DNA of 64,000 nt from a virus (IMGVR_UViG_3300031857_000028:32001-96000); one strand, 5' to 3'; counted from the first letter of the stretch, positions 1,803 to 53,876 are shown. The notes: generated from the letters alone by a model not told the origin. Program-made: numbers and translations.

Positions 1803-2243
1803 TCATACTAACGATTCAGAAAACCAAAATTCTAAATAGTCACTTATATAGGTTTTTAATCCACCAAAATTCAAATCTACGTTTGCAACTTCTATTCTAT
1901 TCATATCACCTATGCCATAAATAGTAATACCCGTTAGTAACGTTCGTGTTTCTTTAACGCCCACAATTTTCCATTTAACCGACGCAGTTATAAACCGTGT
2001 ATTTGATTTTAAGTTTTCATATTGATTTTTATCAATTTCCATAACAACAGTCTTATCATTCACGGGTCGAATGAAATACCGCATAATATATCCCAATGTA
2101 ACATCTTTCTGTGTTACTATCGGACGTATTGATGTTGGATATATGTTTAATAGCTCCTTCAATTTCTGTTCTTTCTTTTTATATAATTCTTCAACCACTC
2201 TGGGTTCTAGCATTGTTTGTTTCTCGTCTAAATTTTTCTGCAA
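1803..2243 (-). CDS. Hypothetical protein in the baseplate region
   Basis: 146-aa ORF collinear with baseplate genes; true start may be the internal MLEPR. Confidence 0.55.
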   Translation of the reverse strand: MQKNLDEKQTMLEPRVVEELYKKKEQKLKELLNIYPTSIRPIVTQKDVTLGYIMRYFIRPVNDKTVVMEIDKNQYENLKSNTRFITASVKWKIVGVKETRTLLTGITIYGIGDMNRIEVANVDLNFGGLKTYISDYLEFWFSESLV

Positions 2244-5200
2244 TAGCAGTCTTCCAATTATTACCTAGAAAATTAAATCGTGCATGAATTTTAGTTTTCC
2301 ACCCAGAAACGTCGATAACATCTTCAATACTTAATATTTGGAATGCGCCGAACACTTTATAAAAAGATGGTAATCTATCTATCCAGAAGAGTTCCCCGAC
2401 GCGTAATCCACTAATTCCAGGTAATATGAGATCGCCGCCGATAGATAACGCTCCAGGACTTGCTCCAAACGCATTTGCAAAATTGCCATTTGCTGTGTCG
2501 GTTATTTCAGCAACCATATATTCAGGGAACATTTCTACATACCTGAATATAGCTTGTAGATGTGGAAAGTCTCTAAGTTTTTTCTCTATTATTTCTTTTA
2601 CTTTTTCTTCTTCTTGCATAATCTGGGTAGTTTGTTTAACCGTTTGTTTTGCACGTTCGCATTTCTTGCACAATTCTTTTCCATTGGCAATGTCAACGTC
2701 CGAGGTCGGACCTAGTGCTAACCCAAAATTATTGGCAATTGAAATATTCAAATATTGCTGGTCAGTGCATCCAGTATTTGCCGGAACTTGGTTATTTGGA
2801 CTGGGTTGAGTGGGTGTCGGTGTAGGCGCAGGTGTAGATGCAGGAACAGGTGTAGGTGTAGGTGCGGGTGTAGGTACCGTGACGCCGCTCAACGTTTGAG
2901 GAGTTATTCCAAATTGAGTGGCTTTTTTATTTGTTACTTGTGTCAAATCTTCTACAGTTATAAACCCATCGCCACCAACATCCAATCCTCTATTTTGTGT
3001 GTAAAAATCCGGACGACTAATTTCATATTCACTGGTCAATACTATGCCGGAAGGAATCGATGGGCTATTAGGTCGCAAATTACTCTGTTTTAGTGGGGTT
3101 TGCAATCTTCCCGGTAAAAAAGTAACCGCATATAATTTTCCTGCACTATCCAATTTCACGCCACGTGGAGTAAATCGTTTGTAATATTGAAACACATAAT
3201 CTAATTGTTGTACTCTAGTCATTCTTCTGAGAGCGTCGGTTGTTGTATTTAACGCAAGTGCGGTCTTCGGCATGAATTGTATCAATCCACTGGCGCCGCC
3301 ATTCTTATTAAGTGCATTTGGTAGTATACCAGATTCATTTGCCATAACCTTCAACATGTCTTCCGGTCTACATCCAAGCTGATTACAAATTTGTACAAGT
3401 TTTTCTTTAAATCCTGGTTCACTGAGGGCATTTTGTAATGCATTCTTGCCTGCTGCCGTAGGACTATATCCAGTGGGGGCAGTAGGAGTTGGTGGTGCAC
3501 ATTGTTCACATTTCTTACACACCTCACCATCCAATAATTTCTGTGCTTGTTCTTTTTCATCGTTCAACTGTTGGGTACGTTTATCTGTGGACGATTCTTC
3601 GGTAGAAATACCAGCTGCTTTACTACCTTGACCAGCAGTTTGTGCAGGCGTCTGTGAGTTTGCTTTTCCACATACACCATTTGCTGCCAATTGTGCAGCA
3701 CGTTGAGTTCTTGGTAAGATTGTCAAGTCCGGGCCCTGAGTACTATCTCCCTTTGGAGATAGTACTGTAATTGCATATAATTCACGTAACGTGTCATTAG
3801 GGTCGGATATCTTTGCAGTTTTTTGATTTGTATAATCGGCGGGGTCATCTGCACTACCGGTAGTAATTCCTACTTTATCCAAATCTTCCGGTTGTACAAG
3901 TCCTAATGTAGCTATTTGTGAAAATAATCGTTTTGGTAACGACAAATCTATATTACATTCTATTAATTCCGATCCTACCAATTGACCGCTTTTAGTATCC
4001 GTTCTAACGTATTTGTTAAATACATGTACTTTATCAATAAATTTAGAAACTGCATCTTGTGAGTTTTCTTTTACGTTGGAATCAATAACAATGTAATTAT
4101 ATGACGGTTGTTTACTACCCAATGGTTCCACGGTGTCTAACGTTAAATCCCAATAATTTAACGTAGCTTGATTCATACGATCTAATAAATTAGTAATTCC
4201 ACGTACTATGGTATCGCCGCCAATCATCGACTCTACCACAGTTTTATGATTCAACCAAACCCCCGTACTTAAAAACGAACGGTCTTTCATCGGTTCTCCT
4301 TTTGAATCCCGTCCTTTATTGTAGTCCGGTGCTGCAGTATCGTACTGTCCAATTGCTTTGAATTTCTCCGATTCATCTGTAGGTTCCAGTAAGTTCCTTC
4401 CTCCTAATGCGGCAGATTTATACTGGTCATTTGCAGCCGCCAATTCTGCCGCTTCTTCGTTTACAATAATCATAATCGACGGGTCAATTGACCGTAAATA
4501 TTTATTGTATCCAGCAAACGGTTCTAACGGATCGTCGATTGCACTATTTGTTGCAACAGGACCATCTCGTTCAGGACCATTTGCATATGGTAACAACATT
4601 CCAATTTTTTCTAAAACATCTTTTTCTACGACGGTAGTAAAAATACGTTTTAAACCAAATTCCGCGTTATTCAATACCACATTTACAAAAAATCGCCACG
4701 TCATGAAATAGGCATCTTCCAAATCTGCAAAGGTATTTTGGTTAACGGTGGGTTTCTTTTTTTCTGCGTCAGGAGCTTTAGGATCACCTTCTTTCACGTT
4801 TCCTTGTGCAAAACGTTGCACGTGACCTTGCCACTCTTTTAATTTACTTCCAGCTTCAACGTCGTCTAATAATGTTTTTAAATTTAGGCCTGTTGCAGTT
4901 TCTGCAAAATACGAGTATACACTATTCGTGTCCGACGCACAGAAAAATTTAGTTGATGCATCTTTTGCAGGAACTACGGTATTTTTTGTTGAGTAGGCCC
5001 ATGAATCCTCTGAGGAGCCAACGATTTTAACTATCGATTGAAAAGACCCATCTGGTAATGTCGTGATTGTAAAGTTTGAAACTCGGCCGAACATCCACAT
5101 GTATTGTCCGCTTGATGGATACACATAGTTCTCTAAAATATCTTGTAGTGAAAAATTATTTTTAGCAATACGAGTTAATATATCTAGTGTTCGATTTTTG

Positions 5201-13067: not shown

Positions 13068-14951
13068 TCATTCTTCTGTATTTTCACTATCAAATTCTTC
13101 TCGGTACCCCATATTGATTCGCTTGACGAATTCCTTAAACATGGATTTGTTACGTTGCGGTGTCACTAAGGCACCGTCTACAATCACATCTGCTATATCT
13201 TGTTTTTCTTTCAAGATATCCCGCATATATTCGTCAATCGTTCCTTCACATATCATATAATATGCTTGGACTTGCGATTTCTGTCCAATACGATGCGTAC
13301 GGTCTTCTGCTTGTTCATGTTCTGCTGGTAACCATCCCATGTCGATAAATACTACCGTATCCATCACGTGCTGTAATCCGTCAATACCCATACCTGCCGC
13401 ACGTAAACTGAACAGTCCAACTTTAGCCTGTTTACTCGTTAGTCTATCAATACTTTGTTGGCGGTCGTTTCTACCCATTTCGCCGGTCAATAGCGCCGCT
13501 TTATCCCCATAGTGTTGTAATAGTGCTTTCAACGGTTTAATATAACAACTGAAAATGAGTATCGAACGGTCATTGTCAATAAACTCATCAATCATTTCAA
13601 TCAATCGTGGTAATTTCTTTTCAATTAAAAATCCTTGGAGTTTGGGCATGTGTTGAACGGATGGTTTACCGTCCATCTTCCACTTTCCAAACATTTCACG
13701 CAGTAATTGATTATATTCCTTCTTCTCGTCTTTTGTGAGTTCCACATACAAATCGTTACGTTGTTTCTTTGGCATCTCCGTCAAGACTTGTTCTTTCTTT
13801 CTACGAATAACCAAGTCTTTGGTGCGGTCATGAAGGTCTTGAAGATTCATCGGTGCTGCACCTTTCCATCCACCATACCGTTGGGTAAAATGAAAGAAAT
13901 TATTGAATCTATCTTTATCCAGAAAGTTTAATAATGCAAACGCCTCAATTGGGCGAGACATGACAGGTGTGCCGGTGAGAAAAATGCAATATTTCGTTTT
14001 GATGCCGGGATACTTTCGTCGTTCTTTATACGAACCCAAGATAGACTTTGCACGAATTGTTTGACGGTTTTTGAGATAGGTTGCCTCGTCACACACAAGT
14101 AAATCAAATTGCTGGTCACGAAGCCACTGATGATTTTTAGACACAGCATCGTAATGGCTAATATGAAATTGATTTCCGAGTTTCCCGTCATATCCTTTTG
14201 AATCCCATATGGTACTCTCCTTTCCCGTAAATCGTTTAATTTCACGTTGCCAATTGACGACAACTGATAATGGGCACACGATAATTGTTTTTAAATTATG
14301 TAATTGTGCATAAGCAATTGCTTGCATGGTTTTTCCCAAACCGGGTGCATCGGCGATGAGACAACGCCCACCGGCTCTATCCACGAATTGTACGCCCACT
14401 TTTTGATACGGATAAGGTTCTACTTTCATACCCTTGATTTCAAAATCCGTATCGTCTTTCTGACGAATTTCGTCTAAGTGTTCTCGACGTTCAGTGAGTT
14501 TATTTAATAATTTAATTGCTTGGTCGGAGAACGTTGCTGTCGGGAATATTTTCTGTATTTTTGGTAAGTGAACTGCCGGAAACTCCCAATACTTTTCGTC
14601 ACCGTTCCACTTTCGTCCATCAATTTCATACTTAAACTGTTCCAATAATAGTTTATTATACGGCATATTAATATATGCAGTTTTACTATCTTTTAAGGAT
14701 ATTTCTATTGGACCAGTTTTTTCTTCTTGTTGTACTTGTGGGGTGTGGGATAATTTTGTACGAGGTAAGGATAAATCTGATACATCATCGTCGGTTAATG
14801 CTCGTTTAGCAGCTTCTACCCATGCAGGTGGGATACCTACCGTTGTACTCATCCATTGGAGGTATTGTGGGGCAATGCGTCGAACACTCCCCAACGTATG
14901 CCCCTTATACTTTCCCCACGTAAAAATTACTGCATCTAACGACGGATGCAT
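13068..14951 (-). CDS. SNF2-family helicase, HARP/SMARCAL1-like
   Basis: ADAPGLGKT (Walker A), VCDEAT, LTGTP, QAEDRTHRIGQ; N-terminal WGKYKG...YLQW domain. Confidence 0.9.
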   Translation of the reverse strand: MHPSLDAVIFTWGKYKGHTLGSVRRIAPQYLQWMSTTVGIPPAWVEAAKRALTDDDVSDLSLPRTKLSHTPQVQQEEKTGPIEISLKDSKTAYINMPYNKLLLEQFKYEIDGRKWNGDEKYWEFPAVHLPKIQKIFPTATFSDQAIKLLNKLTERREHLDEIRQKDDTDFEIKGMKVEPYPYQKVGVQFVDRAGGRCLIADAPGLGKTMQAIAYAQLHNLKTIIVCPLSVVVNWQREIKRFTGKESTIWDSKGYDGKLGNQFHISHYDAVSKNHQWLRDQQFDLLVCDEATYLKNRQTIRAKSILGSYKERRKYPGIKTKYCIFLTGTPVMSRPIEAFALLNFLDKDRFNNFFHFTQRYGGWKGAAPMNLQDLHDRTKDLVIRRKKEQVLTEMPKKQRNDLYVELTKDEKKEYNQLLREMFGKWKMDGKPSVQHMPKLQGFLIEKKLPRLIEMIDEFIDNDRSILIFSCYIKPLKALLQHYGDKAALLTGEMGRNDRQQSIDRLTSKQAKVGLFSLRAAGMGIDGLQHVMDTVVFIDMGWLPAEHEQAEDRTHRIGQKSQVQAYYMICEGTIDEYMRDILKEKQDIADVIVDGALVTPQRNKSMFKEFVKRINMGYREEFDSENTEE

Positions 14952-15234: not shown

Positions 15235-16053
15235 TTATAGGAAAATACTAAAATACTCTCTCCACCCACATTTAATTAAATTATACATATGTTTATTTCG
15301 TGTATAAGAAATATCGAAGATTTTTTCATCACTTCCGATATATCCATGTTGAATAGATTCATCTACCGTATCACAAAATTCTTTAGTTAAGAAATCTATT
15401 AAATGCGAAGGAACTATAAATGCTGTTCCTTGAATGTTTCTTATTTGAGACAACGAGTGAAATCTTTTATCTGATACATCAAACGATTCGTTGTGACTGA
15501 AGAATGTGATTTTGTTTAGATCTAAATCATTTATTTTTTGTATATTCGGCCAGGTAATTCCAGAATAATTCTCGATAGCTTCTCGTAATCCTCCTGCATC
15601 GGCCCAAATAACCAGTTCATTGTCAAAATATTTATTCTCAATACAGTCTCGTATCCAAAATATTTTATTGAACATTATAACATTATACAACGGCTTACTC
15701 ATTTCAGGTACGTCTGGAAAGCTGAGTTTGCTTATAAATGATTCGGAACTCATTAATGTTTCCAATTTTTGATTGTACATTTTATACGCGGGAAGCTCTT
15801 CCAATTCCTGCGTGATAATAATAGTATCGATTAAAGTTGGATCATACTTTTTTCTAATAGTTTCTATCCTATCTTTGAATTTCAACTGCGTGTAAATAAC
15901 CAATTTAGTATGCAACGATAATGTTTTTTCCATCCAATGAATGTATCCATCATATGACTGACGAAACTGTTCCCATGTATCTCTTCCGATATCATATAAT
16001 GCAGTAACTACTGTAGTATTCTTTATAAGTGGGTGTGCTAAATCCATTGCCAT
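15235..16053 (-). CDS. HtrL/YibB (WlaTC)-family glycosyltransferase
   Basis: TVVTALYDIGR, YNVIMFNK, IWADAG and GSDEKI motifs. Confidence 0.75.
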   Translation of the reverse strand: MAMDLAHPLIKNTTVVTALYDIGRDTWEQFRQSYDGYIHWMEKTLSLHTKLVIYTQLKFKDRIETIRKKYDPTLIDTIIITQELEELPAYKMYNQKLETLMSSESFISKLSFPDVPEMSKPLYNVIMFNKIFWIRDCIENKYFDNELVIWADAGGLREAIENYSGITWPNIQKINDLDLNKITFFSHNESFDVSDKRFHSLSQIRNIQGTAFIVPSHLIDFLTKEFCDTVDESIQHGYIGSDEKIFDISYTRNKHMYNLIKCGWREYFSIFL

Positions 16054-16793
16054 TTCACCTGTATGTTTTTGTGTTTAATTTCAACTTTGTCCGTATCAAA
16101 AAATTGCGATGTATTATCTGAATTAATTAATGTTGCTAATTTCATTTCATATTTGTTTAGTATGGTTGGTACAAATCCCTCGGAATATCCATAAATCCCT
16201 TCTCTATGAACTTTCAATAGAATTTCCATTGCACGTTTAGAAAACCTAACAATCGGAAAAAATGAACCAAATAATTCAGTAACATCATTTGGTATGATAT
16301 CACCATCACCTGGAAATCTATAAAACCACTGTTCATTTGAATATGTATTGTGGTCTATGTGGGGAATCGTAGGCTGTGATGATACGTCTTTGTGTTTAAA
16401 TATAAAATACGAAATAAAATCACTATTATCGGTATCAACATTAGCAAAAAATGCATTCCAATCACCTACACTTACATCATCATCAAAAAACCAATAATAG
16501 TCATAATTAGGATGTGTTAAATAATAATTCAACATTCTGAAATGTGCATAGAACCAAATAATATTTCGATTGCCGATGCTATTCCAAAAATGCTTCGTAC
16601 TCACTTGACGGTCGAAATTAAGATTTTTTCTAACATCCGATTCAGTATACGTAAAACCAACGTCAAAGGTACTATCTCTTGTCACATCCGCTATAACTGT
16701 TAGATGTTTGTCAGTTTTTCTAAACTCATCCCAGTTTGCCTCAAAATGTGGATACATATCCGGTGTTGTACAAACGCAGTATGCACTATTCAT
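16038..16793 (-). CDS. Putative GT-A glycosyltransferase
   Basis: PNYDYYWFFDDDV (DxD), SFFPIVRFSKRA, SEGFVPT. Confidence 0.65.
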   Translation of the reverse strand: MNSAYCVCTTPDMYPHFEANWDEFRKTDKHLTVIADVTRDSTFDVGFTYTESDVRKNLNFDRQVSTKHFWNSIGNRNIIWFYAHFRMLNYYLTHPNYDYYWFFDDDVSVGDWNAFFANVDTDNSDFISYFIFKHKDVSSQPTIPHIDHNTYSNEQWFYRFPGDGDIIPNDVTELFGSFFPIVRFSKRAMEILLKVHREGIYGYSEGFVPTILNKYEMKLATLINSDNTSQFFDTDKVEIKHKNIQVKWQWI

Positions 16794-17604
16794 ATGAATT
16801 TATTAAAATTTTATGCCAGTGTGGAACTCTATTAAATTGATGTACAATATCATATATTTTTTCGTCCGACGTACATATTCTATCATTGAGTAATTGCGGG
16901 ATTCCATATCTTGTTTCGATTATACCTTTAAATCCCCATGCATCAAAAAAATTAGTCGGGCCTGCTGCGGCACAGTGCATTGCCCAGCCATCAGTTAAAT
17001 TAAAAATTTTAACATTTGGAATTTTTCCATTTGCTAACAATATAATTAGTGCAGCTTGGTCACGGATGTTGTGATTATTAACACCAACTTCACACAACTC
17101 ATGCATTTGTTGTAACATGTGTATTAGTTGTTCACGTTTTCCCGCCATCACGCCCGAACATATTACCTCAAACGACCGACATTTTTCCATTTCTTCTGGA
17201 TAGCATTTATTCAATACATCGGAGTTCCAAGGTTCCTCGTTGACCAGCACTCCTTCTCCGCTAACAAATATATCATATGTATGTAAATCCATTTTCAAAA
17301 ACGGATCTGCCTGAAACACTACATCGAACACATCTGTAACCATGAACAAATCTATATTACTTTGTTTTAAATAGTCAACCGTGTGCTCCAATCGTTTATT
17401 ATTAATGTACCACGTATCTTCTATTTGAACTGGATGGCACGCTATATTCAATTCCTCACACACCTTGATATCATCTTCATTAGTATTTACTGCTAGTAAT
17501 ATAACATCGCCATCGGAAAATTTTCTAAAACTTTCTGCCCAAATTTTAATTTTTGCTTTGTTCTGTACTATATTGTTTGATGTTCCTATTAATGCTTTTT
17601 TCAT
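16786..17604 (-). CDS. Putative GT-A glycosyltransferase
   Basis: TDVFDVVFQADPF, ICSGVMAG, DQAAL, IVHQFNR; likely start MKKALIG at 17604. Confidence 0.7.
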   Translation of the reverse strand: MKKALIGTSNNIVQNKAKIKIWAESFRKFSDGDVILLAVNTNEDDIKVCEELNIACHPVQIEDTWYINNKRLEHTVDYLKQSNIDLFMVTDVFDVVFQADPFLKMDLHTYDIFVSGEGVLVNEEPWNSDVLNKCYPEEMEKCRSFEVICSGVMAGKREQLIHMLQQMHELCEVGVNNHNIRDQAALIILLANGKIPNVKIFNLTDGWAMHCAAAGPTNFFDAWGFKGIIETRYGIPQLLNDRICTSDEKIYDIVHQFNRVPHWHKILINSYE

Positions 17605-17605
17605 A

Positions 17606-18175
17606 TCAACAAGTTCCCGTACCCACAACTAACGTTTCATTAAATCCAAGTATCGTGGGCCACAGATATTCAATCAAGTAGTTAATTTGACTCTTCACTT
17701 CCAATGGAATTGATTTTTTTATTTTTTCATACGACTCTTTACTTCGTTGTAAAATTAATTTTTTAGAAACAATGCATTGTGCCCCACTTATAAATTTTAT
17801 GGGTAGATTATATTCAATGTGTACGTTCTCTGCATACTGCACAGTTTCTTTAACGATAGAATCAACATCTCTGATATACGAGATTCCCAATGGATAAAAT
17901 GACTGAGTTGTGTCAAAATTATTAACATTGTTTATAAAATTTGGACAATGCGTAAACGGGTCGTCTTGACTGAAACATACGAAATCCGGTAAATTATCGT
18001 AATTGTCTATGATGTATGTTAAATATGCGATTGCATCATATCCAACATTAGGTAAATTTTTTTCATATAAATTATTTTTGTCCGGATTTTTGTTATATAC
18101 CACAACGGGATACTTTATTTGTTTAATCCAATCCAAATTTTCTTGAAAATGACAAACAACAACGGTTAGGTTCAT
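17606..18175 (-). CDS. DUF3431-like protein (putative glycosyltransferase)
   Basis: ENLDW, LPNVG...YLTYIIDNYDNLPD...FSQDDPFTH, GAQCIVSK. Confidence 0.75.
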   Translation of the reverse strand: MNLTVVVCHFQENLDWIKQIKYPVVVYNKNPDKNNLYEKNLPNVGYDAIAYLTYIIDNYDNLPDFVCFSQDDPFTHCPNFINNVNNFDTTQSFYPLGISYIRDVDSIVKETVQYAENVHIEYNLPIKFISGAQCIVSKKLILQRSKESYEKIKKSIPLEVKSQINYLIEYLWPTILGFNETLVVGTGTC

Positions 18176-19437
18176 ATAACCACACTCCTTCTATCCAACC
18201 ACCCCTTTGTTTCTGAGTGGGGCCAGAAAATATATTTATACGGTTTTTTAACCGTATTAAATTCTCTCCAAATTTTTATATAAGGGTCATTAGTAGATTT
18301 TAACTGTTGTATCTCGTCTTTTAGTACGTCTTTTCTATACAATTCTGTACCAGTTTCATCTTCAAATGCAACAACCCATACATTATAATCATTTTCGGGA
18401 ACTTGGTCAAGTGGTATATCTAGACAATATTTAAATATTGATACCCAATTTTTTTCATATTGTTCTTCCGACAAATAGATAGGATTTGGTGGAAGATTAT
18501 TTTCAATTGTGTATTGCTGAACTGCTCTCTTCTTAAAGTTTATTCCCGCATATCGTTCATACTGCTGTAATGTTCTTTTTGTTCCGAACCCGTATATCCC
18601 AAAATCAATATCTTGAGCTTCACCATCCATACCAAATAATTTTCTATTTCTTAGATGTGATTTTGAATTTTTTTCCCACCACGTTTTGTCGTCATCCCAC
18701 TGCTTAGTTCTATTCTTTCTAGTGTATTCATGCCAAGCTACAATTTTATGCGGATGAAATATATCATATCCCCACGTATATGCTCGTACCGCAATTGAAA
18801 TTTCTTCGCCGTGAAAATAGTAATTAGGGTCGTGAGGAACTTCTTTACAAAATTGCCCCAACGTGAAGGCAAAATGTGCCGAATAAAATCTCCCAGGTAT
18901 AGGAGATTGTAAATTTTTATAATTGTCAATTCCGGCGGGTATAAAAAATATTGCACCTTCTGGAATGAATCTATCAAAATTCATTTTCCAGGGAATCTGT
19001 ACCCGACCGTCTGGGTCGTTTTCTGGGTCGTATGATGGGATGTAACTTGTCAGTAACGGTTTTTTATATCCATCGTTTTGCAATTGCTCAATCATGTTAA
19101 TACATTCTACGTCCCAATTTTGTACAAATCTATGATGAGAATCTAATTGAAGGGTATATTTTTCATCATTATATAGTTGCTGTATTTTATTTCGTGCCCA
19201 GCACGCACCATTCGATTCTTTATAGGGAATATCTATTATACTAAATCTAGAATCTTCTTTAAATTCATCTAAATTATCCCACACATCTTCTTCAGAATGT
19301 TGCCACGCAATTCCAAATCGTAAATGTTCTGGATGTTTTGCCTTAACTATACAATCTCGTATAGTTGGAACTAACTCAGGGTCACGGTACGATGCAATTT
19401 GTACAAATATAGTATTTTTCATAAACCTTTCCTTCAT
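18172..19437 (-). CDS. GT60-like polypeptide GlcNAc transferase (Skp1-hydroxyproline / mucin-initiating family)
   Basis: IFVQIASYRDPEL, GACWAR, LQLDSHHRFVQNWD, VPHDP, FHGEEISIAVRAYTWGYD, RTLQQYERYAGI. Confidence 0.85.
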   Translation of the reverse strand: MKERFMKNTIFVQIASYRDPELVPTIRDCIVKAKHPEHLRFGIAWQHSEEDVWDNLDEFKEDSRFSIIDIPYKESNGACWARNKIQQLYNDEKYTLQLDSHHRFVQNWDVECINMIEQLQNDGYKKPLLTSYIPSYDPENDPDGRVQIPWKMNFDRFIPEGAIFFIPAGIDNYKNLQSPIPGRFYSAHFAFTLGQFCKEVPHDPNYYFHGEEISIAVRAYTWGYDIFHPHKIVAWHEYTRKNRTKQWDDDKTWWEKNSKSHLRNRKLFGMDGEAQDIDFGIYGFGTKRTLQQYERYAGINFKKRAVQQYTIENNLPPNPIYLSEEQYEKNWVSIFKYCLDIPLDQVPENDYNVWVVAFEDETGTELYRKDVLKDEIQQLKSTNDPYIKIWREFNTVKKPYKYIFWPHSETKGWLDRRSVVI

Positions 19438-19456
19438 ATGTTTTATTTATTAATTA

Positions 19457-20881
19457 TTATAATACACAGACATTCTCTAAACAAGTTAAGCCATTACAAC
19501 ATGATAATGATAAACAACTTTGGCCCTGATCTGCACATGGTTCTGGTGTAGCCGTTGGGTCAGGTACTGGTGTCGCTGTTGGTTCTGGTACTGGTGTCGC
19601 TGTTGGGTCTGGTACTGGTGTCGCTGTTGGTTCTGGTCCCGGTGTAGCCGTTGGGTCCGGTACTGGTGTCGCTGTTGGGTCTGGTACTGGTGTCGCTGTT
19701 GGTGCCGGTGGCCCACCACCCTGACACGTACTGAGGTTACCATCCACTTCAACGCAATCCAATCCATCACAGCAAGTTCCTACTGGAGAGCCACTGACTA
19801 TACATGCATTACCTGACGTAATACACGTTGGTGTAGCGGTCGGTGCTGCTGGTGTAGCAGTTGGTGCTGGTGTAGCAGTTGGTGCCGGTGGTCCACCACC
19901 CTGACACGTACTGAGGTTACCATCTACCTCGGTACACGTTAATCCATCACAGCAAGTTCCTACTGGAGAACCGCTGACTATACATGCGTTACCTGACGTA
20001 ATACACGTTGGTGTAGCAGTTGGTTGTACTGGTGTTGGTGTTGGTGACGGCGGTGCAGCAGTTTGACACGTACTGAGGTTACCATCTACCTCGGTACACG
20101 TTAATCCATCACAGCAAGTTCCTACTGGAGAACCGCTAATTACACACGCATTACCTTCCGTAATACACGACGGCGTAGCCGTTGGTGTTGGTGTAGCCGT
20201 AGGTGGTAATGGTGTCGGTGTAGCAGTTGGTTCTACTGGTTCTGGTGTAGCCGTTGGTGTTGGTGTAGCCGTTGGTGTTGGTGTAGCAGTTGGTGTCGGT
20301 GTAGCAGTTGGTTCTACTGGTCCTGGTGTAGCAGTTGGTGTAGCGGTTGGTTGTACTGGTGTTGGCGTAGCCGTTGGTGGTACTGGTGTAGCCGTAGGTA
20401 CTGGGGTGGCGGTTGGTTGTACTGGTGTTGGCGTAGCCGTTGGTGGTACTGGTGTTGGCGTAGGTGCTGGTGTGGCAGTTGGTGGTACTGGTGTAGCCGT
20501 AGGTACTGGCGTGGCTGTTGGTGGCACTGGTGTAGCAGTTGGTGTCGGTGTAGCAGTCGGTGTAGCGGTTGGTGTTGCTGTAGGTGTTGCTGTAGGTGTT
20601 GGGGTTGGGGTTGGTGTGGCACTTGTTGTTGGTGTAGGTGTTGGTATTGGGGAGTGACACAGAAAATAATTGCGGGGACGATAGGCAATTAAACTGTAAT
20701 TCACTTCCGTGTATCCAGCAGGACATCCTGCTGCAGCCGACCCAGACGGACCTCTATTTCCGAAACTACCCGTAAGTGCATATAAAATACTATATCCAGG
20801 ACTGTTAACGGTAGTAACAATACTGGCAGAAATTGCATATGAACTGGATGCTGGGATAGCAAACGGAAAAAATACGGACAT
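19457..20881 (-). CDS. Mucin-like Pro/Thr-repeat protein carrying four cystine-knot-like modules
   Basis: Long PTATP tracts; three near-identical C-x6-C-x9-CC-x4-C-x9-C modules and a shorter terminal one. Confidence 0.8.
19540..20650. repeat. Coding tandem repeats: PTATP units and three 102-bp knottin copies (19724-19825, 19904-20005, 20066-20167)
   Basis: Direct repeats visible in DNA, e.g. ggtgtagcagttggt and ccatcacagcaagttcctactggag. Confidence 0.9.
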
Positions 20882-20918
20882 TACATTCTCATTCTAAATT
20901 GGATATACACGCAACACC

Positions 20919-21773
20919 TTAAGTTTCTAACGAAAATACGTGAACCGATGCGGTTACACTTTGAGAAGAACCTACTGATGCAAGATTCTCTATCATATAG
21001 TAAATTTCATGTTTTCCCGCAAGTGTGGAAAAACTATTCTTAATAATATTCAAGTCCGTTCCCATATTTTGTATATTTGCTCCAATAATTTTTGGTACAA
21101 AATAGGTAGTCTCACTTCCCGTTAAAATTGCATCTAACAGTAACGTGTTTGTTTGTGTTTCCGATGCATACGGTCTATTTTTTTCGGTAGTATTATTTAA
21201 GATTGGTTGTGTATTATAAAATCGTACTCGTATGGGTGCCGAAGTGTTACTAACTGATGCACTTACAAATAAGTAGGTTCGTGGAATATCAGCATTCGTA
21301 ACTGAACCACTTGCTAATTGTCCTGGTGACAGTGATACTTGTATTGATGGTAATTCTACACGACTATCTGTACTAATTACTGAATCTTCTAATAAGTATC
21401 TACCAAATGTCAATCTAGGTACTGATGGTGCGTTATCTATTTTATAATAGGTTAATTTTGTTGATGGTGTACCAACCACACCATATAGTGCGGGGTCAAT
21501 CGTATATGTGCCCGCAGCCATCGTAAAATCACCTATTAATGAAATCGATGCAGGAATATTTGTATCACCAAATGCACGTGACTGCTCTGTCAAATTATTT
21601 AGACTATCTAAATTGTCATACAAACGCAGTCTACATGACGTATTTGACTGAATTGCATATAACACGTATGCAGAACCTAAATCAACAGATCCTGATCCTG
21701 CTACGTCTGTTAATATTTCGATATTATCCCGTGTTAAACTTGCACCGGCTTGTAAATATTCTTTTAATCCCAT
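20919..21773 (-). CDS. Putative virion structural protein with two similar beta-rich halves
   Basis: CRLRLYDN..SRAF and IRVRFYNT..NRPY internal similarity; first gene after a late-promoter-like motif. Confidence 0.55.
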   Translation of the reverse strand: MGLKEYLQAGASLTRDNIEILTDVAGSGSVDLGSAYVLYAIQSNTSCRLRLYDNLDSLNNLTEQSRAFGDTNIPASISLIGDFTMAAGTYTIDPALYGVVGTPSTKLTYYKIDNAPSVPRLTFGRYLLEDSVISTDSRVELPSIQVSLSPGQLASGSVTNADIPRTYLFVSASVSNTSAPIRVRFYNTQPILNNTTEKNRPYASETQTNTLLLDAILTGSETTYFVPKIIGANIQNMGTDLNIIKNSFSTLAGKHEIYYMIENLASVGSSQSVTASVHVFSLET

Positions 21774-21797
21774 GGAGTTTTATATTTAATGTCTGTA

Positions 21798-21805
21798 TAT
21801 AAATA
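21798..21805 (-). promoter_or_regulatory. Putative late promoter TATTTATA heading the mucin/glycosyltransferase operon
   Basis: 25 nt upstream of the ATG at 21773. Confidence 0.6.
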
Positions 21806-21852
21806 TGTACTCATGTCCATATCCTACAGAATTTACTCATAAATATGTTAAT

Positions 21853-22053
21853 TTAAAATGGCGTAGTTATCCACGCAGTTCCATTCCAATACTTCACAGG
21901 TTTAATTTGCCACGTAGAACCGTCCCATACTTTCATGGGCTTTGCTATCCATTGTGCACCATCCCACACTTTAATTTGTCCCGTGGTTCCAACGACTGCA
22001 CTTTGTAAATCTGCGGCCGCAGGAAGCAGTGGTTGATAAATCCATGTAGACAT
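21853..22053 (-). CDS. Small fibre-associated protein with KVWDG repeats
   Basis: KVWDGAQW / KVWDGSTW / KYWNGTAW. Confidence 0.65.
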   Translation of the reverse strand: MSTWIYQPLLPAAADLQSAVVGTTGQIKVWDGAQWIAKPMKVWDGSTWQIKPVKYWNGTAWITTPF

Positions 22054-23552: not shown

Positions 23553-24902
23553 TTAATTAGTATCTACCCACAAATCGTTGATTGCGGGACTTGATGGGGC
23601 CGTGGTACCTACGGTGATGCGTAGTGCTACGGGATTGAATTGTGCAAGTGATCCAGTAAACGACCCCGTGAATGATCCAGTAATCCCAGCGGAAGCACTA
23701 ATACTTCCGTTCACCGATAGTGTGTTACGTAAATTGGTCGTAGTATTAATGCCAACGTTTCCACTGGAGCTAATGAATACTCGTGTTGTTGCCGTGCTGT
23801 CTCGACCACCAGCAAACAATCGAATATTACCAGTTGAAACAGGTGAGGCATTCCCGATATCTAATTCACCCACACTAGAGGTAAAATATACATACCCGTC
23901 CGATGGACCACCAACCAATCCTCCATTATACGTGGTGCTATTAATACCTAAATCAATATAATTACCAGAATCCGTGGTATTATTTGATGATACTACAATG
24001 TCCGAACTTGCATTATTTCCCGCCGAAAAATTGACTACTTCTAATTCAAAAAAGCTATCTGTGCTACCACTGATAATTACTGGACTGTTATTATTTGAAC
24101 TTGACATTAACAATGATCCGCTAATTTCTTGATTCCCGATAATATGGGATGACCCTGTAATCTTCAATGATCCAGAAATGTTTACTTCTCGTCTATTGTT
24201 TACCTTAAACACATCAATACTAGCAGATGTTAATGTAAACAAATCACTAGATGAATCATCCGTAACTTCAAACAATTGCCCATCATTACCAATTATTGTA
24301 AATAATGCAGAACCACTTCCACGTAACACCGTGGAACCAGTTACTCTCAATGCGGGAATTATTCCACTTCCAGAAAGAATTAATGAACCTGAAATTACGG
24401 CGGGAGTTGTTCTTCCATCATACGGGAACGTACTGCCACCCGGACCACCACCGGTACCAACTGATGCAGTCGTAAAGATTTGGTTTGTTGCCGTATTCAA
24501 GACCAATACTTTGTTTGTTGCGGTCGTATCAGCCAAATTATTTAATTGAACATTTGACGAAGTGATATTTCCAATAAATGACCCTGTAAAACTTCCGGTA
24601 TTAATTTGTGCGGAAGAAGATACCACTCCCGATGGAAGTATGTACGTTGATGCAAACGAGGCAGTGGTTGCGAAGGACGCCGTTGTCGCAAACGAAGCGG
24701 TAGTTGGTGTAAATGTAATAGAGGTTGCCGCTGACGCAGTTATTGCATTATTTGCCCAACTACTCGTTCCGAACAACGACCCAGTAAGGCCCCCGTTAGC
24801 AAATTGCGAGGCACCTGAAATAATCAAGGAACCCGAAAGTATCGTGCTCCCAGTGACTTCTAATTGGTTGAAACTACCTGTGTCCGTAAAAAATATTGGC
24901 AT
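23553..24902 (-). CDS. Tail fibre-like protein
   Basis: TGS/SAS repeats, GNVGINTT fibre motif, C-terminal APSSPAINDLWVDT. Confidence 0.7.
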   Translation of the reverse strand: MPIFFTDTGSFNQLEVTGSTILSGSLIISGASQFANGGLTGSLFGTSSWANNAITASAATSITFTPTTASFATTASFATTASFASTYILPSGVVSSSAQINTGSFTGSFIGNITSSNVQLNNLADTTATNKVLVLNTATNQIFTTASVGTGGGPGGSTFPYDGRTTPAVISGSLILSGSGIIPALRVTGSTVLRGSGSALFTIIGNDGQLFEVTDDSSSDLFTLTSASIDVFKVNNRREVNISGSLKITGSSHIIGNQEISGSLLMSSSNNNSPVIISGSTDSFFELEVVNFSAGNNASSDIVVSSNNTTDSGNYIDLGINSTTYNGGLVGGPSDGYVYFTSSVGELDIGNASPVSTGNIRLFAGGRDSTATTRVFISSSGNVGINTTTNLRNTLSVNGSISASAGITGSFTGSFTGSLAQFNPVALRITVGTTAPSSPAINDLWVDTN

Positions 24903-26171: not shown

Positions 26172-29100
26172 TTAATTTTCTCCGTATGCGGTTGCAATCC
26201 AATACGTAGTACCAGCTAACCCAGTGTTACTATTTGCATTAATTACGAAACTTCCCGCAAGTTTACTTTCAATCGTCCATGACCGTGCATCTTCTCCAGT
26301 AACCGTGATTGCGTAATTTGTATTCGGAAACGCCGTGGTAAACGTCACCGTTGCTTTTCGTGGGTTGCCGGCAAACGAGGTATTTGTCACATTTCCTGCT
26401 TTGGAGCGTAAGACATTTGATGCAAATGATGAGGTAGTAGCAAATGAACTACTACCTAACAACGAACCGGAGAAAGACCCAGTAAACGACCCCGTACTGA
26501 TTTGTAACGAACTTGATACCGTGCCTACTGGCAAGAATGCAATTACTTGAGCAGAACTACTAACAATATTAGCTGGAATATTTTGGAGTTGCGTGTAACT
26601 AATTTGTGTTGAAGAAGATACCACCCCCTCGGTATTTAATTCCTTTTTCACACCGTCTAGGAAATGAACTGAACTTGTATCCAGTGTAATAGTTCCTGTA
26701 GAGTTGATAGTACCGCCTGTCAATCCATTACCTGCCACTATTGATGTAACTCCACCAATACTCGGAGCCCATGACGCCGATGTGGCAAATGACGAACTTA
26801 CAGAATTACTTGCCCAACTTGCCGTGGCAATTAATGAACCAGTAACGGTTAATCCATTAGTAAAATTACCACTACCCGAGACATCTAATGTGTACTGTGG
26901 AGTGGGAGTTAATATACCTACTTTTGCTTGTGCGGATAAACTGGATGTTACCGTTGTTGGCGAATTAACAAAATCACTGGAGCTGTGGATACCTGTTGCA
27001 AATAATAATCCGCCCAAATTCATGAAATTTGTAGAATTATTGGGTACTGCTATTCCATTTCCAATAACAATAGTATTACTACCCGTTAAAATTGATGACG
27101 TTGGTTGTCCGGCGGAAACTCCAATATTAATTGAAAATGGAGTACTGGCATTTTTCCCCGCCCCATGACCAATATTTGTGGAATAATTTATTGATTTACT
27201 GTTATTGGTGGCATTACCAGTAAACCTTCCAGCGTCACGGCCAATATTTATTGAACCAGCAGATGAACTGACCCCCAATCCTGCAAGGGTGCCAATATTT
27301 ACGGAATATTCCGACAGATCTGTATATGCTCCCGCATATTCACCTATTGCAATTCTTCGTGAACCACTATTACCGAATTCGCCTGCATAATATCCTATAT
27401 TAATTGCATAAGTGGCACGTTGTACATTACTACCGGCGTACTCTCCTATAGAGATAGCATAATCTACATATTTTGAAAATACACCCGGTCGTGAACCGAT
27501 TGATACTGTGTTTCCTGAACCCGTGGTATTTGCGTTTGCCGACAAGCCTATTGCAACCACCTGACCGGCGCCAACGTTTGAGTTGGCACTTGCGAGTGGT
27601 CCAATTATAACGTCACTAAAAAATGTACCTCCCCGAGCTGCAGTCCCTGCACCAATATATACTCCAGAATTGGTACTGTTTGTAAGGGAAGATGAAAATA
27701 ACGAATGTGAACCTATAACAATAATGCCGTTGGGGTTGTTAGTCAACAAGCCTGCCGCATTGGCACCAAGTATTACTGAGCCCGTTGGGATAACGCCCGA
27801 CCTGCTAACTTCAAAAGATACTAATGAACTATTTACTACCTGTAGTGGATATGATGACGATACTGCATTTGTTGTAAATGATGACGATATACTAAAACTT
27901 GATGTAACTGCTCTACTTGAACTTGTAGCAAACGATGCCGATATTGTTAGACTTGATGTTGGCGCAAAGGATGCAGTTGCTGGAGTAAAGGTGATGGAGT
28001 TGGCCGCACTTGCCGTAATTGCATTAACTGCATTAGTTGCCCAACTTGCCGTCCCAAACATCGTACCAACATTTGTAATATCATTTCCACCCAACGACAG
28101 AGTTCCTGCCATTGCACGAGCACCGTTGACCAACAAATATTGTGTGTGGTCATCGGCATCTAATCCTAAGAGATTTCCGTGAACAGATGAAGCATTTACA
28201 CCGGTTGCTCTAAATCCAATTATTGGACGGATATCTTGAATTTGAGTAATATTTGCCGAACCGGATTGTACATACACTGCGGCCAACGGTACCACCCCAT
28301 CATTAAAATACGATGGAATAGATGGTAAGTTTGCATTTTCCGCTTCAACAAGGGTAGAATATTGATTACTATTTAATATCAAGAAATATTTTTCATCAGC
28401 ACCATCACCCACCAAGTAGACTGTATGCTTCGTATAAGCAGATGCGGACATTGCAACTAGGGCACTACTTGATGCATATACATTATTTGGAACGATTGAT
28501 GACGTATATCGTGCCCATGCCGATGCACTTGGATAATATTGCGTAAGATTTATAGAGGATGTTCCTATCGGAGTAAACTCGTTTTCCGAGAAGAAATACG
28601 TTCCTTGTGTAACATCTAATTTAAATGGGGTTACGTTTTGTGTTACTGTTGATCCTGCGGCAAATACTGGTCCCAAGGCTTTTCTATTGAACGTAGAAAG
28701 CTTGTTAGCCATGTGTTCACCGTTATACAACGTTTGGTCAATAAATTCTACCTTTGTATCGTTGGTGACAACTCTTCCAAGAATAATATTCGTTTCATTA
28801 TCTGGAATTGTACCCGCAGATGTTAATGTTCCAGCATCCGTAATGTAAATATAGTTATTGGAATTTGCCGTTAATGTAAGAGTACCATCCACCCAATCCA
28901 ATCTCTTGTATACATCTGTATCTATGGTATCTTGTAAGTATCCGAATCCACTTGCCGCAGTAATACCAAATCCACTTCCAGTAGTAATAGTCCCACCTTG
29001 CATGACACCCATTGGTGAACCCTTAAAGATAAGGGTTGTTGCGTCCGTATGCGTACCATCAGCAAAGGTGACGGATAACTTACGAGTTACGTCATTTTCA

Positions 29101-53660: not shown

Positions 53661-53876
53661 TCAATTATCGTAATGTTTTTGTCGTGCGGCTCTACGTTCT
53701 TCACGTTTTCTACGACGAAGTGCCTCTTGACTCTTAAATTTTTTCTTTTTTGATGGTTTTAAGAAATGTTCTCTGTTTTTTAACTCCTGCATAATTTCAG
53801 ATTTCTTAACCATCTTGGTGAATTGTTTTAATGCTTTATTCAATTCATCCTTGCCATCGTTAACTTTAATAAACAT
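53661..53876 (-). CDS. rpsU: Ribosomal protein bS21
   Basis: IKV...ELNKALKQF.K......E...REHFLKPSKKKK, 71 aa, basic. Confidence 0.85.
   Translation of the reverse strand: MFIKVNDGKDELNKALKQFTKMVKKSEIMQELKNREHFLKPSKKKKFKSQEALRRRKREERRAARQKHYDN

What the first reader, a model, noticed from the sequence alone, without database searches (positions are those of the whole stretch)
15235..21805. Candidate phage mucin system: Pro/Thr stalk with cystine knots co-transcribed with a GT60 O-glycosylation cassette
Seen: one late-promoter-like motif (21798) precedes a structural-looking gene, then a 474-aa protein of long PTATP tracts with four knottin-like modules, then five tightly coupled GT-type genes (GT60-like, DUF3431-like, two GT-A/DxD, HtrL/YibB-like). 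Known: GT60 enzymes are polypeptide GlcNAc transferases (Dictyostelium Skp1 Gnt1; trypanosomatid enzymes that start mucin O-glycans on Thr), and some actinobacteriophages glycosylate their virions with their own GTs. Inference: the phage builds a mucin-like glycoprotein appendage, where GT60 primes Thr residues, the other GTs extend the glycan, and the stiffened stalk presents disulfide-knotted domains for adhesion or shielding. I know of no characterised phage system with this architecture.
Basis: partly seen in the sequence, partly recalled or inferred. Interest (0 to 1): 0.88.

Follow-up and report, generated by a model that had tools for sequence, protein, structure and literature searches.

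The report
Phage Pro-Thr stalk protein with sugar-transferase cassette
An uncultured freshwater T4-like phage encodes, in its tail-gene block, a protein made of long proline-threonine tracts and four tiny disulfide-knot domains. The next gene is an enzyme of the family that starts mucin-type sugar chains in protists, so the phage probably sugar-coats its own appendage, though no sugar has been measured.

Summary
On the minus strand lie a promoter-like motif, a jelly-roll structural gene (g284), a 474-aa Pro/Thr protein with four 6-Cys knottin-like modules, a solid GT60 gene (PF11397, 253 bits) and four tightly coupled genes.

Of those four, only one (g251) looks like a GT-A glycosyltransferase. 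HtrL_YibB and DUF3431 are families of unknown function. g280 has only weak hints.

All eleven distinct related phages examined have the stalk protein, and the eight whose contig reaches far enough all have GT60 within about 10 kb. The enzymes after GT60 differ between close relatives (fucose, galactofuranose, methylation genes).

Across 88 viral GT60 loci, Pro/Thr-tract genes pile up next to the cassette. In the reverse test, 9 of 120 loci picked only for a (PT)6 run carry GT60.

Jumbo phage XacN1 carries a GT60 homolog, and its virions are reported to contain PAS-stained glycoprotein bands.

My best reading (about 0.58) is that GT60 starts O-glycans on the stalk of a tail-associated appendage in the host cytoplasm. 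This is inference from synteny; nothing was measured.

I found no published description. This scan has already noted the same GT60/Pro-Thr pairing on several other genomes. New here are the knottin heads, the swapped cassette and the XacN1 link.

The parts
21798..21806 (-). Recurrent promoter-like motif ATATTTATA, 25 nt upstream of the g284 start codon
   Evidence: 9 matches against 2.5 expected, 8 of them on the minus strand; the motif lies in intergenic gaps upstream of structural genes. No further copy occurs until a variant ahead of the baseplate gene at about 13060.
20919..21773 (-). g284, a conserved structural-type protein of two jelly-roll beta-sandwich domains and a core gene of this phage lineage
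   Evidence: 154 homologs at 46-85% identity. AF2 model with pLDDT 70; best BFVD matches are cyanophage tail-fibre-like proteins (E 1e-7 over about 136 aa). PDB matches are generic (Z up to 7.4).
20648..20881 (-). PT474 residues 1-78: conserved N-terminal domain with the motif FFPF(G/A)IPxxSSYAxxAS and a Cys53/Cys75 pair
   Evidence: 8 lineage members aligned, 17 invariant columns; the same N-terminal motif heads a 277-aa protein at 962-1795 and small ORFs in relatives.
20174..20647 (-). PT474 residues 79-236: first Pro/Thr stalk (60 Thr and 56 Pro in 158 residues)
   Evidence: imperfect tandem repeats at the DNA level.
19700..20176 (-). PT474 residues 236-394: three 6-Cys knottin-like modules separated by short Pro/Thr linkers
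   Evidence: AF2 pLDDT 91 for module 1; the best PDB matches are ICK toxins and fungal CBM1 (TM 0.65-0.74, E 0.1-1). Toxin_7 at E 2e-4, below its cut-off.
19550..19699 (-). PT474 residues 395-444: last stalk segment of acidic (D/E)PTATPVP repeats
   Evidence: period-24 repeat, 6.9 copies.
19457..19549 (-). PT474 residues 445-474 and stop codon: fourth, shorter 6-Cys module at the C-terminus
18172..19437 (-). GT60-family glycosyltransferase, soluble, with DSH at residues 99-101
   Evidence: PF11397, 253 bits; phrog_24687, E 2e-180; no hydrophobic segment; DSH motif.
17606..18175 (-). DUF3431-like protein, function unknown
   Evidence: E 3e-16, best stretch covers profile positions 6-72 of 219; no functional literature; found in only 2 of 88 GT60 loci.
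16786..17628 (-). g280, a possible nucleotide-sugar transferase on weak evidence
   Evidence: GT_PLOD at E 0.003, below its cut-off; nearest Atlas clusters are viral, and PF03407 is carried by only 10% of one cluster. The Atlas record starts at residue 9, suggesting a later start near 17604.
16038..16793 (-). g251, probable GT-A-fold glycosyltransferase
   Evidence: the Atlas model (pTM 0.82) matches DUF707/DUF3405 models at TM 0.73-0.75 and a Branch (beta-1,6-GlcNAc-transferase) model at TM 0.61. No Pfam hit.
15235..16053 (-). HtrL/YibB-family protein, the commonest companion of phage GT60
   Evidence: 87.8 bits, cut-off 24.1; below the NCBIfam equivalog cut-offs; an HtrL-like domain occurs in 54 of 88 GT60 loci.
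2803..2877 (-). Short Pro/Thr linker inside the baseplate-hub/lysozyme protein (2191-5817), a possible second acceptor
   Evidence: tract near residues 981-1005. (SLT domain, baseplate hub).

Best explanation
PT474 is a tail- or baseplate-associated appendage of a T4-like freshwater myovirus. It has a conserved 78-residue N-terminal docking domain, an extended Pro/Thr stalk and four disulfide-knotted head modules.

The soluble GT60 enzyme encoded 19 nt downstream starts O-glycans on stalk threonines in the host cytoplasm during late infection. By family precedent the first sugar is alpha-GlcNAc.

The following genes (g251, a GT-A-like protein; HtrL-like; DUF3431-like; g280) extend or decorate the glycan. 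The result would be a stiff, protease-resistant, mucin-like stalk that presents variable heads. The cystine knots would oxidise only after lysis.

The enzyme set after GT60 is swapped between close relatives, which suggests the glycan is an exposed surface under diversifying selection.

Shown here: gene order, family assignments, the fold of the module, conservation, and co-occurrence statistics.

Inferred: the enzyme-substrate relation, the sugar, the roles of the four downstream genes, the virion location and the function of the heads.
For: 1. GT60 membership is solid. The characterised members of the family that I could confirm are polypeptide alpha-GlcNAc-transferases acting on Thr/Ser-rich mucin domains or on Skp1 hydroxyproline (PMC8724618; PMC6939170).

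2. Neither the cassette proteins nor PT474 has a membrane segment or a signal peptide. Enzyme and candidate substrate therefore share the cytoplasm.

3. Lineage survey through g284. All eleven distinct relatives examined have a homolog of the stalk protein. All eight whose contig extends far enough also have GT60, either directly downstream of the stalk gene (L095, L096/L097, L011, and L093 as a 1260-aa fusion) or 6-9 kb upstream of g284 (L098, L100, L101, L102). Three contigs end inside the stalk gene.

4. In 88 IMG/VR GT60 loci, Pro/Thr-tract ORFs sit at position -1 in 16 loci. Beyond +/-6 genes the share is 0-5% per position. Counted by homology cluster of the non-PT parts, 6 of 34 clusters have modal position -1 (P = 5e-3) and 24 of 34 flank the cassette (P = 1e-4). 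The neighbours are unrelated proteins, with lectin-like, P-domain-like or RCC1-like parts.

5. Reverse test: 9 of 120 viral loci chosen only for a (PT)6 coding run carry GT60. In GenBank phages only 4 of 50,697 records do.

6. The cassette varies between close relatives. L004 has GT25, GT11, an FkbM methyltransferase and an epimerase/dehydratase. L093 has an O-FucT fused to two GT60 domains. L011 has UDP-galactopyranose mutase and a methyltransferase.

7. The locus lies inside the tail module: tape measure, baseplate hubs and fibre-like proteins.

8. XacN1 ORF334 is a GT60 homolog at 51% identity. XacN1 virions show at least two Schiff-stained glycoprotein bands (PMC5852040). XacN1 and Xoo-sp13 encode many Thr-Pro tracts.
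Against: No glycan, glycopeptide or virion proteome exists for this phage.

Fifty-five of the 88 GT60 loci have no Pro/Thr-tract ORF within +/-6 genes, so adjacency is not universal.

The positional enrichment may partly reflect GT60 cassettes and Pro/Thr-linked fibre proteins sharing the tail module, rather than an enzyme-substrate tie. The loci are also related to one another.

No lineage member lacks either partner, so there is no informative loss pattern.

The baseline GT60 frequency was not measured within IMG/VR itself.

Cystine knots cannot form in the reducing cytoplasm.

The glycoprotein bands of XacN1 were not identified, and the XacN1 paper ties them to its GT genes only by suggestion.

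The GT nature of three of the four downstream genes is unproven.
Confidence: 0.58

Rival explanations
1. The cassette glycosylates phage proteins, but PT474 is not the main target. The acceptors would be other virion proteins (capsid, sheath, fibres, the baseplate hub with its short Pro/Thr linker, or the 325-aa Cys/Pro-Thr protein elsewhere in the genome). PT474 would sit next to the cassette only because both belong to the tail module.
For: The genome has two other Pro/Thr-tract proteins. In Xoo-sp13 and XacN1 the Thr-Pro-tract genes are scattered far from GT60. In 55 of 88 loci no Pro/Thr ORF is adjacent.
Against: PT474 has by far the longest tracts in the genome. Its homolog stays within about 10 kb of GT60 in every relative whose contig reaches far enough, even where the cassette has moved. 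Unrelated Pro/Thr proteins take position -1 in other lineages.
Confidence: 0.15
2. The cassette acts on host envelope glycans (LPS core, O-antigen or capsule precursors) during infection, for example to block superinfection or alter the cell surface. It would have no protein substrate.
For: HtrL/YibB sits in the E. coli LPS-core gene cluster (my own knowledge). Relatives carry GT25 'LPS biosynthesis', GT11 and sugar-nucleotide enzymes typical of polysaccharide loci. Soluble GTs can act on lipid-linked precursors at the inner face of the membrane.
Against: The characterised GT60 enzymes that I could confirm act on polypeptides. The genes sit in a tail-gene block behind a motif shared with structural genes. 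There is no flippase, polymerase or membrane protein in the cassette. This reading does not explain the piling-up of Pro/Thr ORFs around GT60.
Confidence: 0.12
3. The cassette glycosylates phage DNA (hypermodified bases) to evade restriction.
For: Phage GTs commonly do this (review statements quoted in PMC12619734).
Against: No thymidylate-synthase-type hydroxymethylase is found in the 146-kb record, although that record is only 76% complete. GT60 has no known DNA activity. The cassette lies among tail genes, not replication genes.
Confidence: 0.03
4. PT474 is glycosylated or not, but is not a virion part. It would be released at lysis as a free Pro/Thr-knottin protein, for example a decoy, a matrix binder or an inhibitor of a host or competitor protein.
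For: Knottin folds are typical of secreted inhibitors and binders. Module relatives in the 1.8-billion-protein library are secreted eukaryote-type Cys-repeat proteins. No virion data exist.
Against: The N-terminal motif is shared with fibre-like paralogs, and the gene lies in the tail module directly after a conserved jelly-roll structural gene. There is no signal peptide.
Confidence: 0.1

Closest known systems
CAZy GT60 / Pfam PF11397 polypeptide alpha-GlcNAc-transferases of protists (Dictyostelium and Toxoplasma Gnt1 acting on Skp1 hydroxyproline; Dictyostelium and Trypanosoma cruzi mucin-type pp-alphaGlcNAcTs)
   Same: Clear sequence membership (253 bits). A DSH metal-binding-type motif. 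Soluble like Gnt1. The candidate acceptor is a Thr/Pro-rich tract like protist mucin domains.
   Different: It is encoded by a bacteriophage and would act in a bacterial cytoplasm. It carries a C-terminal extension of about 120 residues outside the Pfam domain. Acceptor and donor sugar are untested. It travels with HtrL-like and other genes not known from the protist pathways.
Virion glycosylation of mycobacteriophages (Freeman et al. 2023, as cited in PMC12619734) and of chloroviruses (virus-encoded GTs acting on the PBCV-1 capsid protein, as cited in PMC5852040)
   Same: Virus-encoded cytoplasmic GTs would modify the virus's own structural proteins, independently of the host's secretory glycosylation.
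   Different: In those systems the targets are C-termini of capsid and tail-tube subunits, or the major capsid protein, and I know of no GT60 in them. Here the candidate target is a dedicated Pro/Thr stalk protein with knottin heads, and the initiating enzyme is GT60.
Xanthomonas jumbo phage XacN1 (ORF334 and the PAS-positive virion bands; PMC5852040)
   Same: A GT60 homolog at 51% identity with an HtrL-like companion (ORF330), many Thr-Pro tracts, and virions experimentally positive for glycoprotein.
   Different: It belongs to a different phage group (a 385-kb jumbo phage of a gammaproteobacterium). Its cassette contains a carbamoyltransferase. The Thr-Pro-tract genes are not adjacent to GT60. 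The glycoproteins were not identified and no link to Thr-Pro tracts was drawn.
Fungal cellulases: CBM1 modules on O-glycosylated Pro/Thr/Ser linkers
   Same: Small disulfide-rich modules of about 35 residues with the same overall fold (TM 0.70-0.74 to 1cbh and 7yhf), carried on Pro/Thr-rich linkers that are O-glycosylated in the fungal proteins.
   Different: The phage modules have 6 Cys in the ICK pattern and no aromatic residue, so they lack the flat aromatic cellulose-binding face. There is no catalytic domain. They are not members of CBM1.
Inhibitor cystine knot (knottin) peptides such as spider toxins (Pfam Toxin_7) and tachystatins
   Same: The cysteine framework C-C-CC-C-C, a three-stranded sheet, and best structural matches to agelenin, psalmotoxin and tachystatin.
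   Different: The Pfam score is below the cut-off (21.9 against 27). The modules are repeated four times inside a phage protein rather than released as a secreted peptide. Disulfide connectivity was not verified.

Membership tests
GT60 (Pfam PF11397 GlcNAc) | Profile match above the curated cut-off over the catalytic domain | tested here: met
   252.9 bits against a cut-off of 21. Residues 63-302 match profile positions 97-351, and the N-terminal stretch matches separately; 210.7 bits in the genome search.
GT60 (Pfam PF11397 GlcNAc) | DxH-type metal-binding motif of the GT27/GT60 GT-A enzymes (feature recalled from memory) | tested here: met
   DSH at residues 99-101; the consensus of 8 phage homologs reads LDSHHRF.
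GT60 (Pfam PF11397 GlcNAc) | Transfer of alpha-GlcNAc from UDP-GlcNAc to a polypeptide Thr/Ser/Hyp | not testable with these tools
   This needs an enzyme assay or glycoproteomics. The only support here is synteny.
Inhibitor cystine knot (knottin) fold | Six Cys in the C-C-CC-C-C framework with ICK-compatible loop lengths | tested here: met
   four modules; the Cys columns are invariant across 7 aligned modules.
Inhibitor cystine knot (knottin) fold | Knotted fold with I-IV, II-V and III-VI disulfides | tested here: inconclusive
   The AF2 model has pLDDT 91. The best PDB matches are all ICK or CBM1 (TM 0.65-0.74), but Foldseek E is 0.13-1 because the domain is tiny. Connectivity was not checked.
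Pfam Toxin_7 (spider ICK toxins) | Score above the gathering cut-off | tested here: not met
   21.9 bits against a cut-off of 27. I call the modules 'knottin-like', not members of Toxin_7.
CBM1 (fungal cellulose-binding module) | Flat face of three aromatic residues | tested here: not met
   modules 1-4 contain no Tyr, Trp or Phe.
HtrL_YibB (PF09612 / TIGR02192) | Family-level profile match; equivalog-level match to E. coli YibB | tested here: inconclusive
   The Pfam match is met (87.8 against 24.1). The NCBIfam equivalog cut-offs are not met (105.9 against 264.9; 104.2 against 342). It is a family member, not a YibB ortholog, and the family's function is unknown.
DUF3431 (PF11913) | Profile match over the domain | tested here: inconclusive
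   60.4 bits against a cut-off of 25, but the best stretch covers only profile positions 6-72 of 219. No function is known.
Mucin-like glycoprotein | Long Pro/Thr/Ser domain | tested here: met
   105 Thr and 105 Pro in 474 residues.
Mucin-like glycoprotein | Dense O-glycosylation of that domain | not testable with these tools
   No mass-spectrometry or staining data exist for this phage. The only indirect precedent is the PAS-positive bands of XacN1.
Phage tail fibre or appendage | Presence in the virion, attached to the tail or baseplate | not testable with these tools
   The context supports it, but there is no virion proteome. The planned complex prediction never ran.

The most novel reading that the evidence does not exclude
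Large environmental phages run a self-contained, cytoplasmic mucin-type O-glycosylation pathway. GT60 primes dedicated Pro/Thr stalk proteins. A swappable set of downstream enzymes writes lineage-specific glycans, a virion 'glyco-serotype' comparable to bacterial O-antigen diversity. The glycosylated stalk displays hypervariable cystine-knot heads that act as host- or matrix-binding adhesins. If so, mucin-type protein glycosylation would be widespread in the virosphere, and GT60 would be an ancient prokaryote/virus family rather than a protist speciality.
Probability: 0.35. Interest if true: 0.82.

Novelty: new variant of a known kind. Interest (0 to 1): 0.64.

Why it matters
Glycosylated phage particles are known from only a few systems, and none that I found uses a mucin-type initiator.

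If the reading holds, many large aquatic and soil phages coat tail appendages with self-made O-glycans. That would affect adsorption, stability, grazing and protease resistance, and immune recognition of therapeutic phages.

It would also supply a soluble bacterial-cytoplasm enzyme with a natural acceptor tag for glyco-engineering.

The hypothesis is directly testable in phages that can already be grown (XacN1, Xoo-sp13, CM1, RAS14). XacN1 particles are already reported to stain for glycoprotein.

Tried and rejected
- tblastn of the whole PT474 against GenBank phages found nothing. The low-complexity filter probably masks most of it.
- The search of 5.8 billion proteins with PT474 returned mostly low-complexity Pro/Thr matches (SprB-repeat proteins and others). 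Only P0002 was a true homolog.
- Sigma-70 promoter and terminator scans were no better than shuffled sequence.
- PDB sequence searches with GT60, g280, g251, the HtrL-like and the DUF3431-like proteins found nothing significant.
- PHROGs and NCBIfam gave nothing for g251, g280, g284 or PT474.
- The PDB fold search for g284 gave only generic jelly-roll matches (Z up to 7.4).
- Literature searches for GT60 or PF11397 in phages, and for glycosylated Pro/Thr phage fibres, found no description. DUF3431 has no functional literature.
- The Freeman et al. paper is not held. I cite it only through PMC12619734.
- Sequencing runs: no RNA holder is listed. The DNA holders are freshwater, lake and 'fungus metagenome' runs. 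No reads were laid.
- Complex prediction for g284 with the PT474 N-terminal domain was sent six times and the machine was unreachable each time. No result exists.
- I considered and rejected the T4 late promoter reading, because the orientation is wrong.
- I considered and rejected CBM1 membership, because the modules have no aromatic residues.

Full report
**What the window is.** The window is part of a 145.7-kb IMG/VR viral record estimated to be 76% complete. Almost all genes lie on the minus strand. It encodes:
- a gp23-type major capsid protein, a tail sheath and a ribosomal protein bS21;
- a tape-measure-like protein and two baseplate-hub-type proteins, one of them with an SLT lysozyme domain;
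- several very large fibre-like proteins full of [ST]AS[FY]A repeats.

It is therefore a distant T4-like myovirus. Near-identical DNA occurs in freshwater and lake metagenome runs. No cultured relative is close; the best helicase match is Rhodothermus phage RM378 at 29% identity.

**Checking the observation.** Reading the minus strand, the order is:
- the motif at 21798-21806;
- g284 (284 aa);
- a 37-nt gap, then PT474 (474 aa);
- a 19-nt gap, then GT60 (421 aa);
- four genes that overlap their neighbours by 4-23 nt: DUF3431-like (189 aa), g280, g251 and HtrL/YibB-like (272 aa);
- an 88-aa gene, an SNF2 helicase and the next baseplate gene.

GT60 is unambiguous: PF11397 at 253 bits against a cut-off of 21, and phrog_24687 at E 2e-180. 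The HtrL_YibB and DUF3431 hits pass their Pfam cut-offs, but both families have unknown function. g251 has no Pfam hit. Its Atlas model resembles DUF707/DUF3405 and Branch-type transferase models at TM 0.61-0.75, so a GT-A fold is likely. g280 has only a sub-threshold GT_PLOD hit and a weak Atlas lead. 'Five GT-type genes' should therefore read: one certain GT, one probable GT, and three genes of unknown function that travel with them.

**The promoter-like motif.** On the coding strand the motif reads ATATTTATA. It occurs 9 times in the window against 2.5 expected, and 8 of the 9 are on the coding strand. Exact or near-exact copies sit in intergenic gaps ahead of structural genes. The motif is still a good candidate for this phage's own promoter element. 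No further copy occurs until a variant just ahead of the baseplate gene near 13060. A single transcription unit from g284 to the helicase is therefore plausible, but it is not shown. Generic sigma-70 and terminator scans are uninformative.

**Anatomy of PT474.**
- Residues 1-78 form a conserved domain that starts with FFPF(A/G)IPxxSSYAxxAS and holds a conserved Cys pair.
- Residues 79-236 contain 60 Thr and 56 Pro.
- Three nearly identical 6-Cys modules follow, separated by Pro/Thr linkers. Then comes an acidic (D/E)PTATPVP repeat and a fourth, shorter module at the C-terminus.
- The protein has no Lys, no signal peptide and no hydrophobic segment.
- The reading frame is confirmed by homologs that share the N-terminal domain and have Cys-rich modules in the same frame.

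A module folded with a 7-sequence alignment gave pLDDT 91. Its best PDB matches are all inhibitor-cystine-knot peptides (agelenin, psalmotoxin, asteropsin, tachystatins) and fungal CBM1 modules, at TM 0.65-0.74 and rmsd 1.6-2.7 A. The E-values are only 0.13-1, as expected for 39 residues. Pfam Toxin_7 scores below its cut-off. An exhaustive phmmer search of 1.8 billion representatives found 15 proteins at E below 1e-3. The nine I inspected are mostly eukaryote-type Cys-repeat proteins, several with signal peptides, and one also has Thr/Pro linkers. 'Knottin-like' is therefore justified, while membership of a named toxin family or of CBM1 is not. The modules contain no aromatic residue, so they lack the cellulose-binding face of CBM1.

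**Is PT474 a virion part?** This is inferred, not shown.
- The gene lies within the tail block.
- The gene before it, g284, is a core gene of the lineage with 154 homologs. It models as two jelly-roll sandwiches, and its best viral matches are cyanophage tail-fibre-like proteins at E 1e-7. PDB matches are generic.
- The N-terminal motif of PT474 also heads a 277-aa protein at 962-1795. In relatives it heads two small ORFs (about 80 and 60 aa) that lie between g284 and the stalk gene.
- A shared N-terminal motif on otherwise different proteins suggests a common docking site. I tried to test g284 against the N-terminal domain by complex prediction, but the machine could not be reached.

(a) Within the lineage, sampled through g284 and through P0002:
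- Eleven distinct relatives were examined, and every one has a stalk-protein homolog. In three of them it starts at GTG, and my first ATG-only gene call missed it.
- All eight whose contig extends far enough also have GT60.
- In L095, L096/L097 and L011, GT60 directly follows the stalk gene, as in the window. In L093 it is part of a 1260-aa fusion.
- In L098, L100, L101 and L102, two GT60 genes lie 6-9 kb upstream of g284.
- Three contigs end inside the stalk gene, so they say nothing about what follows.
- No member lacks either partner, so there is no informative loss.

(b) Across 88 IMG/VR loci with GT60 at 58-74% identity:
- Pro/Thr-tract ORFs sit at position -1 in 16 loci, and at -2, -3, +4 or +5 in 26 more cases. 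Beyond +/-6 genes the share is 0-5% per position.
- After masking the tracts, the 62 proteins fall into 34 homology clusters. Six have modal position -1 (P = 5e-3) and 24 flank the cassette (P = 1e-4).
- Their globular parts are unrelated: lectin-like, P-domain-like or RCC1-like.

(c) Reverse test: of 120 viral loci fetched only because they encode (PT)6, 9 contain a GT60 homolog within about 10 kb. In 50,697 GenBank phage records, GT60 occurs in only four.

Caveats:
- 55 of the 88 loci show no adjacent Pro/Thr ORF.
- The loci are not independent of one another.
- Both gene types may simply prefer tail modules.
- The IMG/VR baseline frequency was not measured.

**The cassette is swapped between close relatives.** The flanks are conserved: g284 at 57%, the 88-aa gene at 50% and the helicase at 82% identity to L004. 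The enzymes after GT60 differ:
- this window: DUF3431-like, g280, g251 and HtrL-like;
- L004 and L095: a second GT60-like gene, DUF5672, GT25, an FkbM methyltransferase, GT11 and an epimerase/GDP-mannose-dehydratase-type enzyme;
- L093: an O-FucT-family domain fused to two GT60 domains, a GT1-like protein and DUF6065;
- L011: a methyltransferase and UDP-galactopyranose mutase.

The stalk composition (PT, SP or TITPS-type) and the Cys-rich heads also change. A constant initiator with variable extenders and a variable head is the pattern expected for an exposed, diversifying glycoconjugate. The only widespread companion of GT60 is an HtrL-like domain, present in 54 of the 88 loci.

**Experimental precedent found.** XacN1 ORF334, annotated only as 'glycosyltransferase family protein', is a GT60 homolog at 51% identity over 98% of the query. 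The XacN1 paper reports at least two Schiff-stained glycoprotein bands in purified virions and suggests that the phage's own GTs make them (PMC5852040). It does not identify the bands, and it does not mention Thr-Pro tracts.

XacN1 and Xoo-sp13 each encode many Thr-Pro runs: 36 against 0 control hits, and 69 against 3. These include a Xoo-sp13 protein annotated 'mucin-16-like' and a run inside the 3313-aa XacN1 ORF325, which lies next to the baseplate wedge genes. These phages are the obvious test bed.

**Mechanism and rivals.**

Best reading (0.58): soluble GT60 primes stalk threonines of PT474 in the cytoplasm, the companion enzymes extend the glycan, and the product is a tail-associated mucin-like appendage with knottin heads that oxidise after lysis.

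Rivals:
- the cassette glycosylates other virion proteins (0.15);
- it remodels host envelope glycans (0.12);
- PT474 is a released, non-virion factor (0.10);
- it glycosylates DNA (0.03). No hydroxymethylase gene is found in the record.

**Comparison with what is known.** GT60 enzymes of protists start mucin-type O-GlcNAc glycans or modify Skp1. Phage-encoded glycosylation of virions is known for mycobacteriophage capsid and tail-tube C-termini, as cited in PMC12619734. I found no paper that describes GT60 in phages or a Pro/Thr-stalk substrate. I therefore class this as a new variant of a known kind.

This scan has already reported the same GT60/Pro-Thr pairing on at least eight other genomes. 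I repeated the key statistics independently. New here are the knottin heads, the lineage-wide synteny with cassette swapping, the reverse test and the XacN1 link.

Noticed in passing
window 21798, 22483, 37772, 43200, 44536, 45159, 50660 and 63000 (minus strand): The strand-specific motif ATATTTATA recurs, mostly in intergenic gaps ahead of structural genes. It is a likely phage promoter element and is the reverse complement of the T4 late consensus.
   Followed up: partly
window 13068-14951: An SNF2-type helicase with an ExoX-like C-terminal motif at its N-terminus sits inside the tail/baseplate block, between the sugar cassette and a baseplate-hub gene. This placement is conserved in relatives (L004, L011, L102).
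   Followed up: no
genome G000:C1:125137-126114 (outside the window): A second small-Cys-module plus Pro/Thr-tract protein (325 aa, 10 Cys). It may be another acceptor of the same pathway.
   Followed up: no
window 962-1795; L004:6556-6996: Unrelated proteins, including 60-80-aa mini-ORFs in relatives, begin with the same F-x-P-x-G-x-P-x-x-S-S-x-A motif as PT474. This suggests a shared N-terminal docking tag. The mini-ORFs are absent from this window.
   Followed up: partly
L093:13509-17288: A 1260-aa fusion protein in a close relative joins a GDP-fucose O-fucosyltransferase-family domain to two GT60 domains, directly after a Ser/Pro-rich stalk protein with 20 Cys.
   Followed up: partly
window 23553-24902, 26172-31499, 34343-37684 and 41082-43175: A family of very large fibre-like proteins is built from [ST]AS[FY]A(x)[ST]AS repeats. 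Most have no PHROG or Pfam match.
   Followed up: no
window 21853-22053: A 66-aa ORF with three W-x-x-K-P-x-K-V/Y-W-D/N-G repeats lies between two structural genes. It has no family match.
   Followed up: no
window 53661-53876: A phage-encoded ribosomal protein bS21 (PF01165, E 1e-12) lies in the head-gene block, upstream of the gp23-type capsid gene.
   Followed up: partly
MN047793.1 108649-111639 (L119:19250-22240): The cultured Xanthomonas phage Xoo-sp13 has a protein annotated 'mucin-16-like' that is full of Thr-Pro runs, 115 kb away from its GT60 gene.
   Followed up: partly
window 37884-40079: A 731-aa protein with seven DUF285 (BspA-type) repeats lies among the fibre genes.
   Followed up: no
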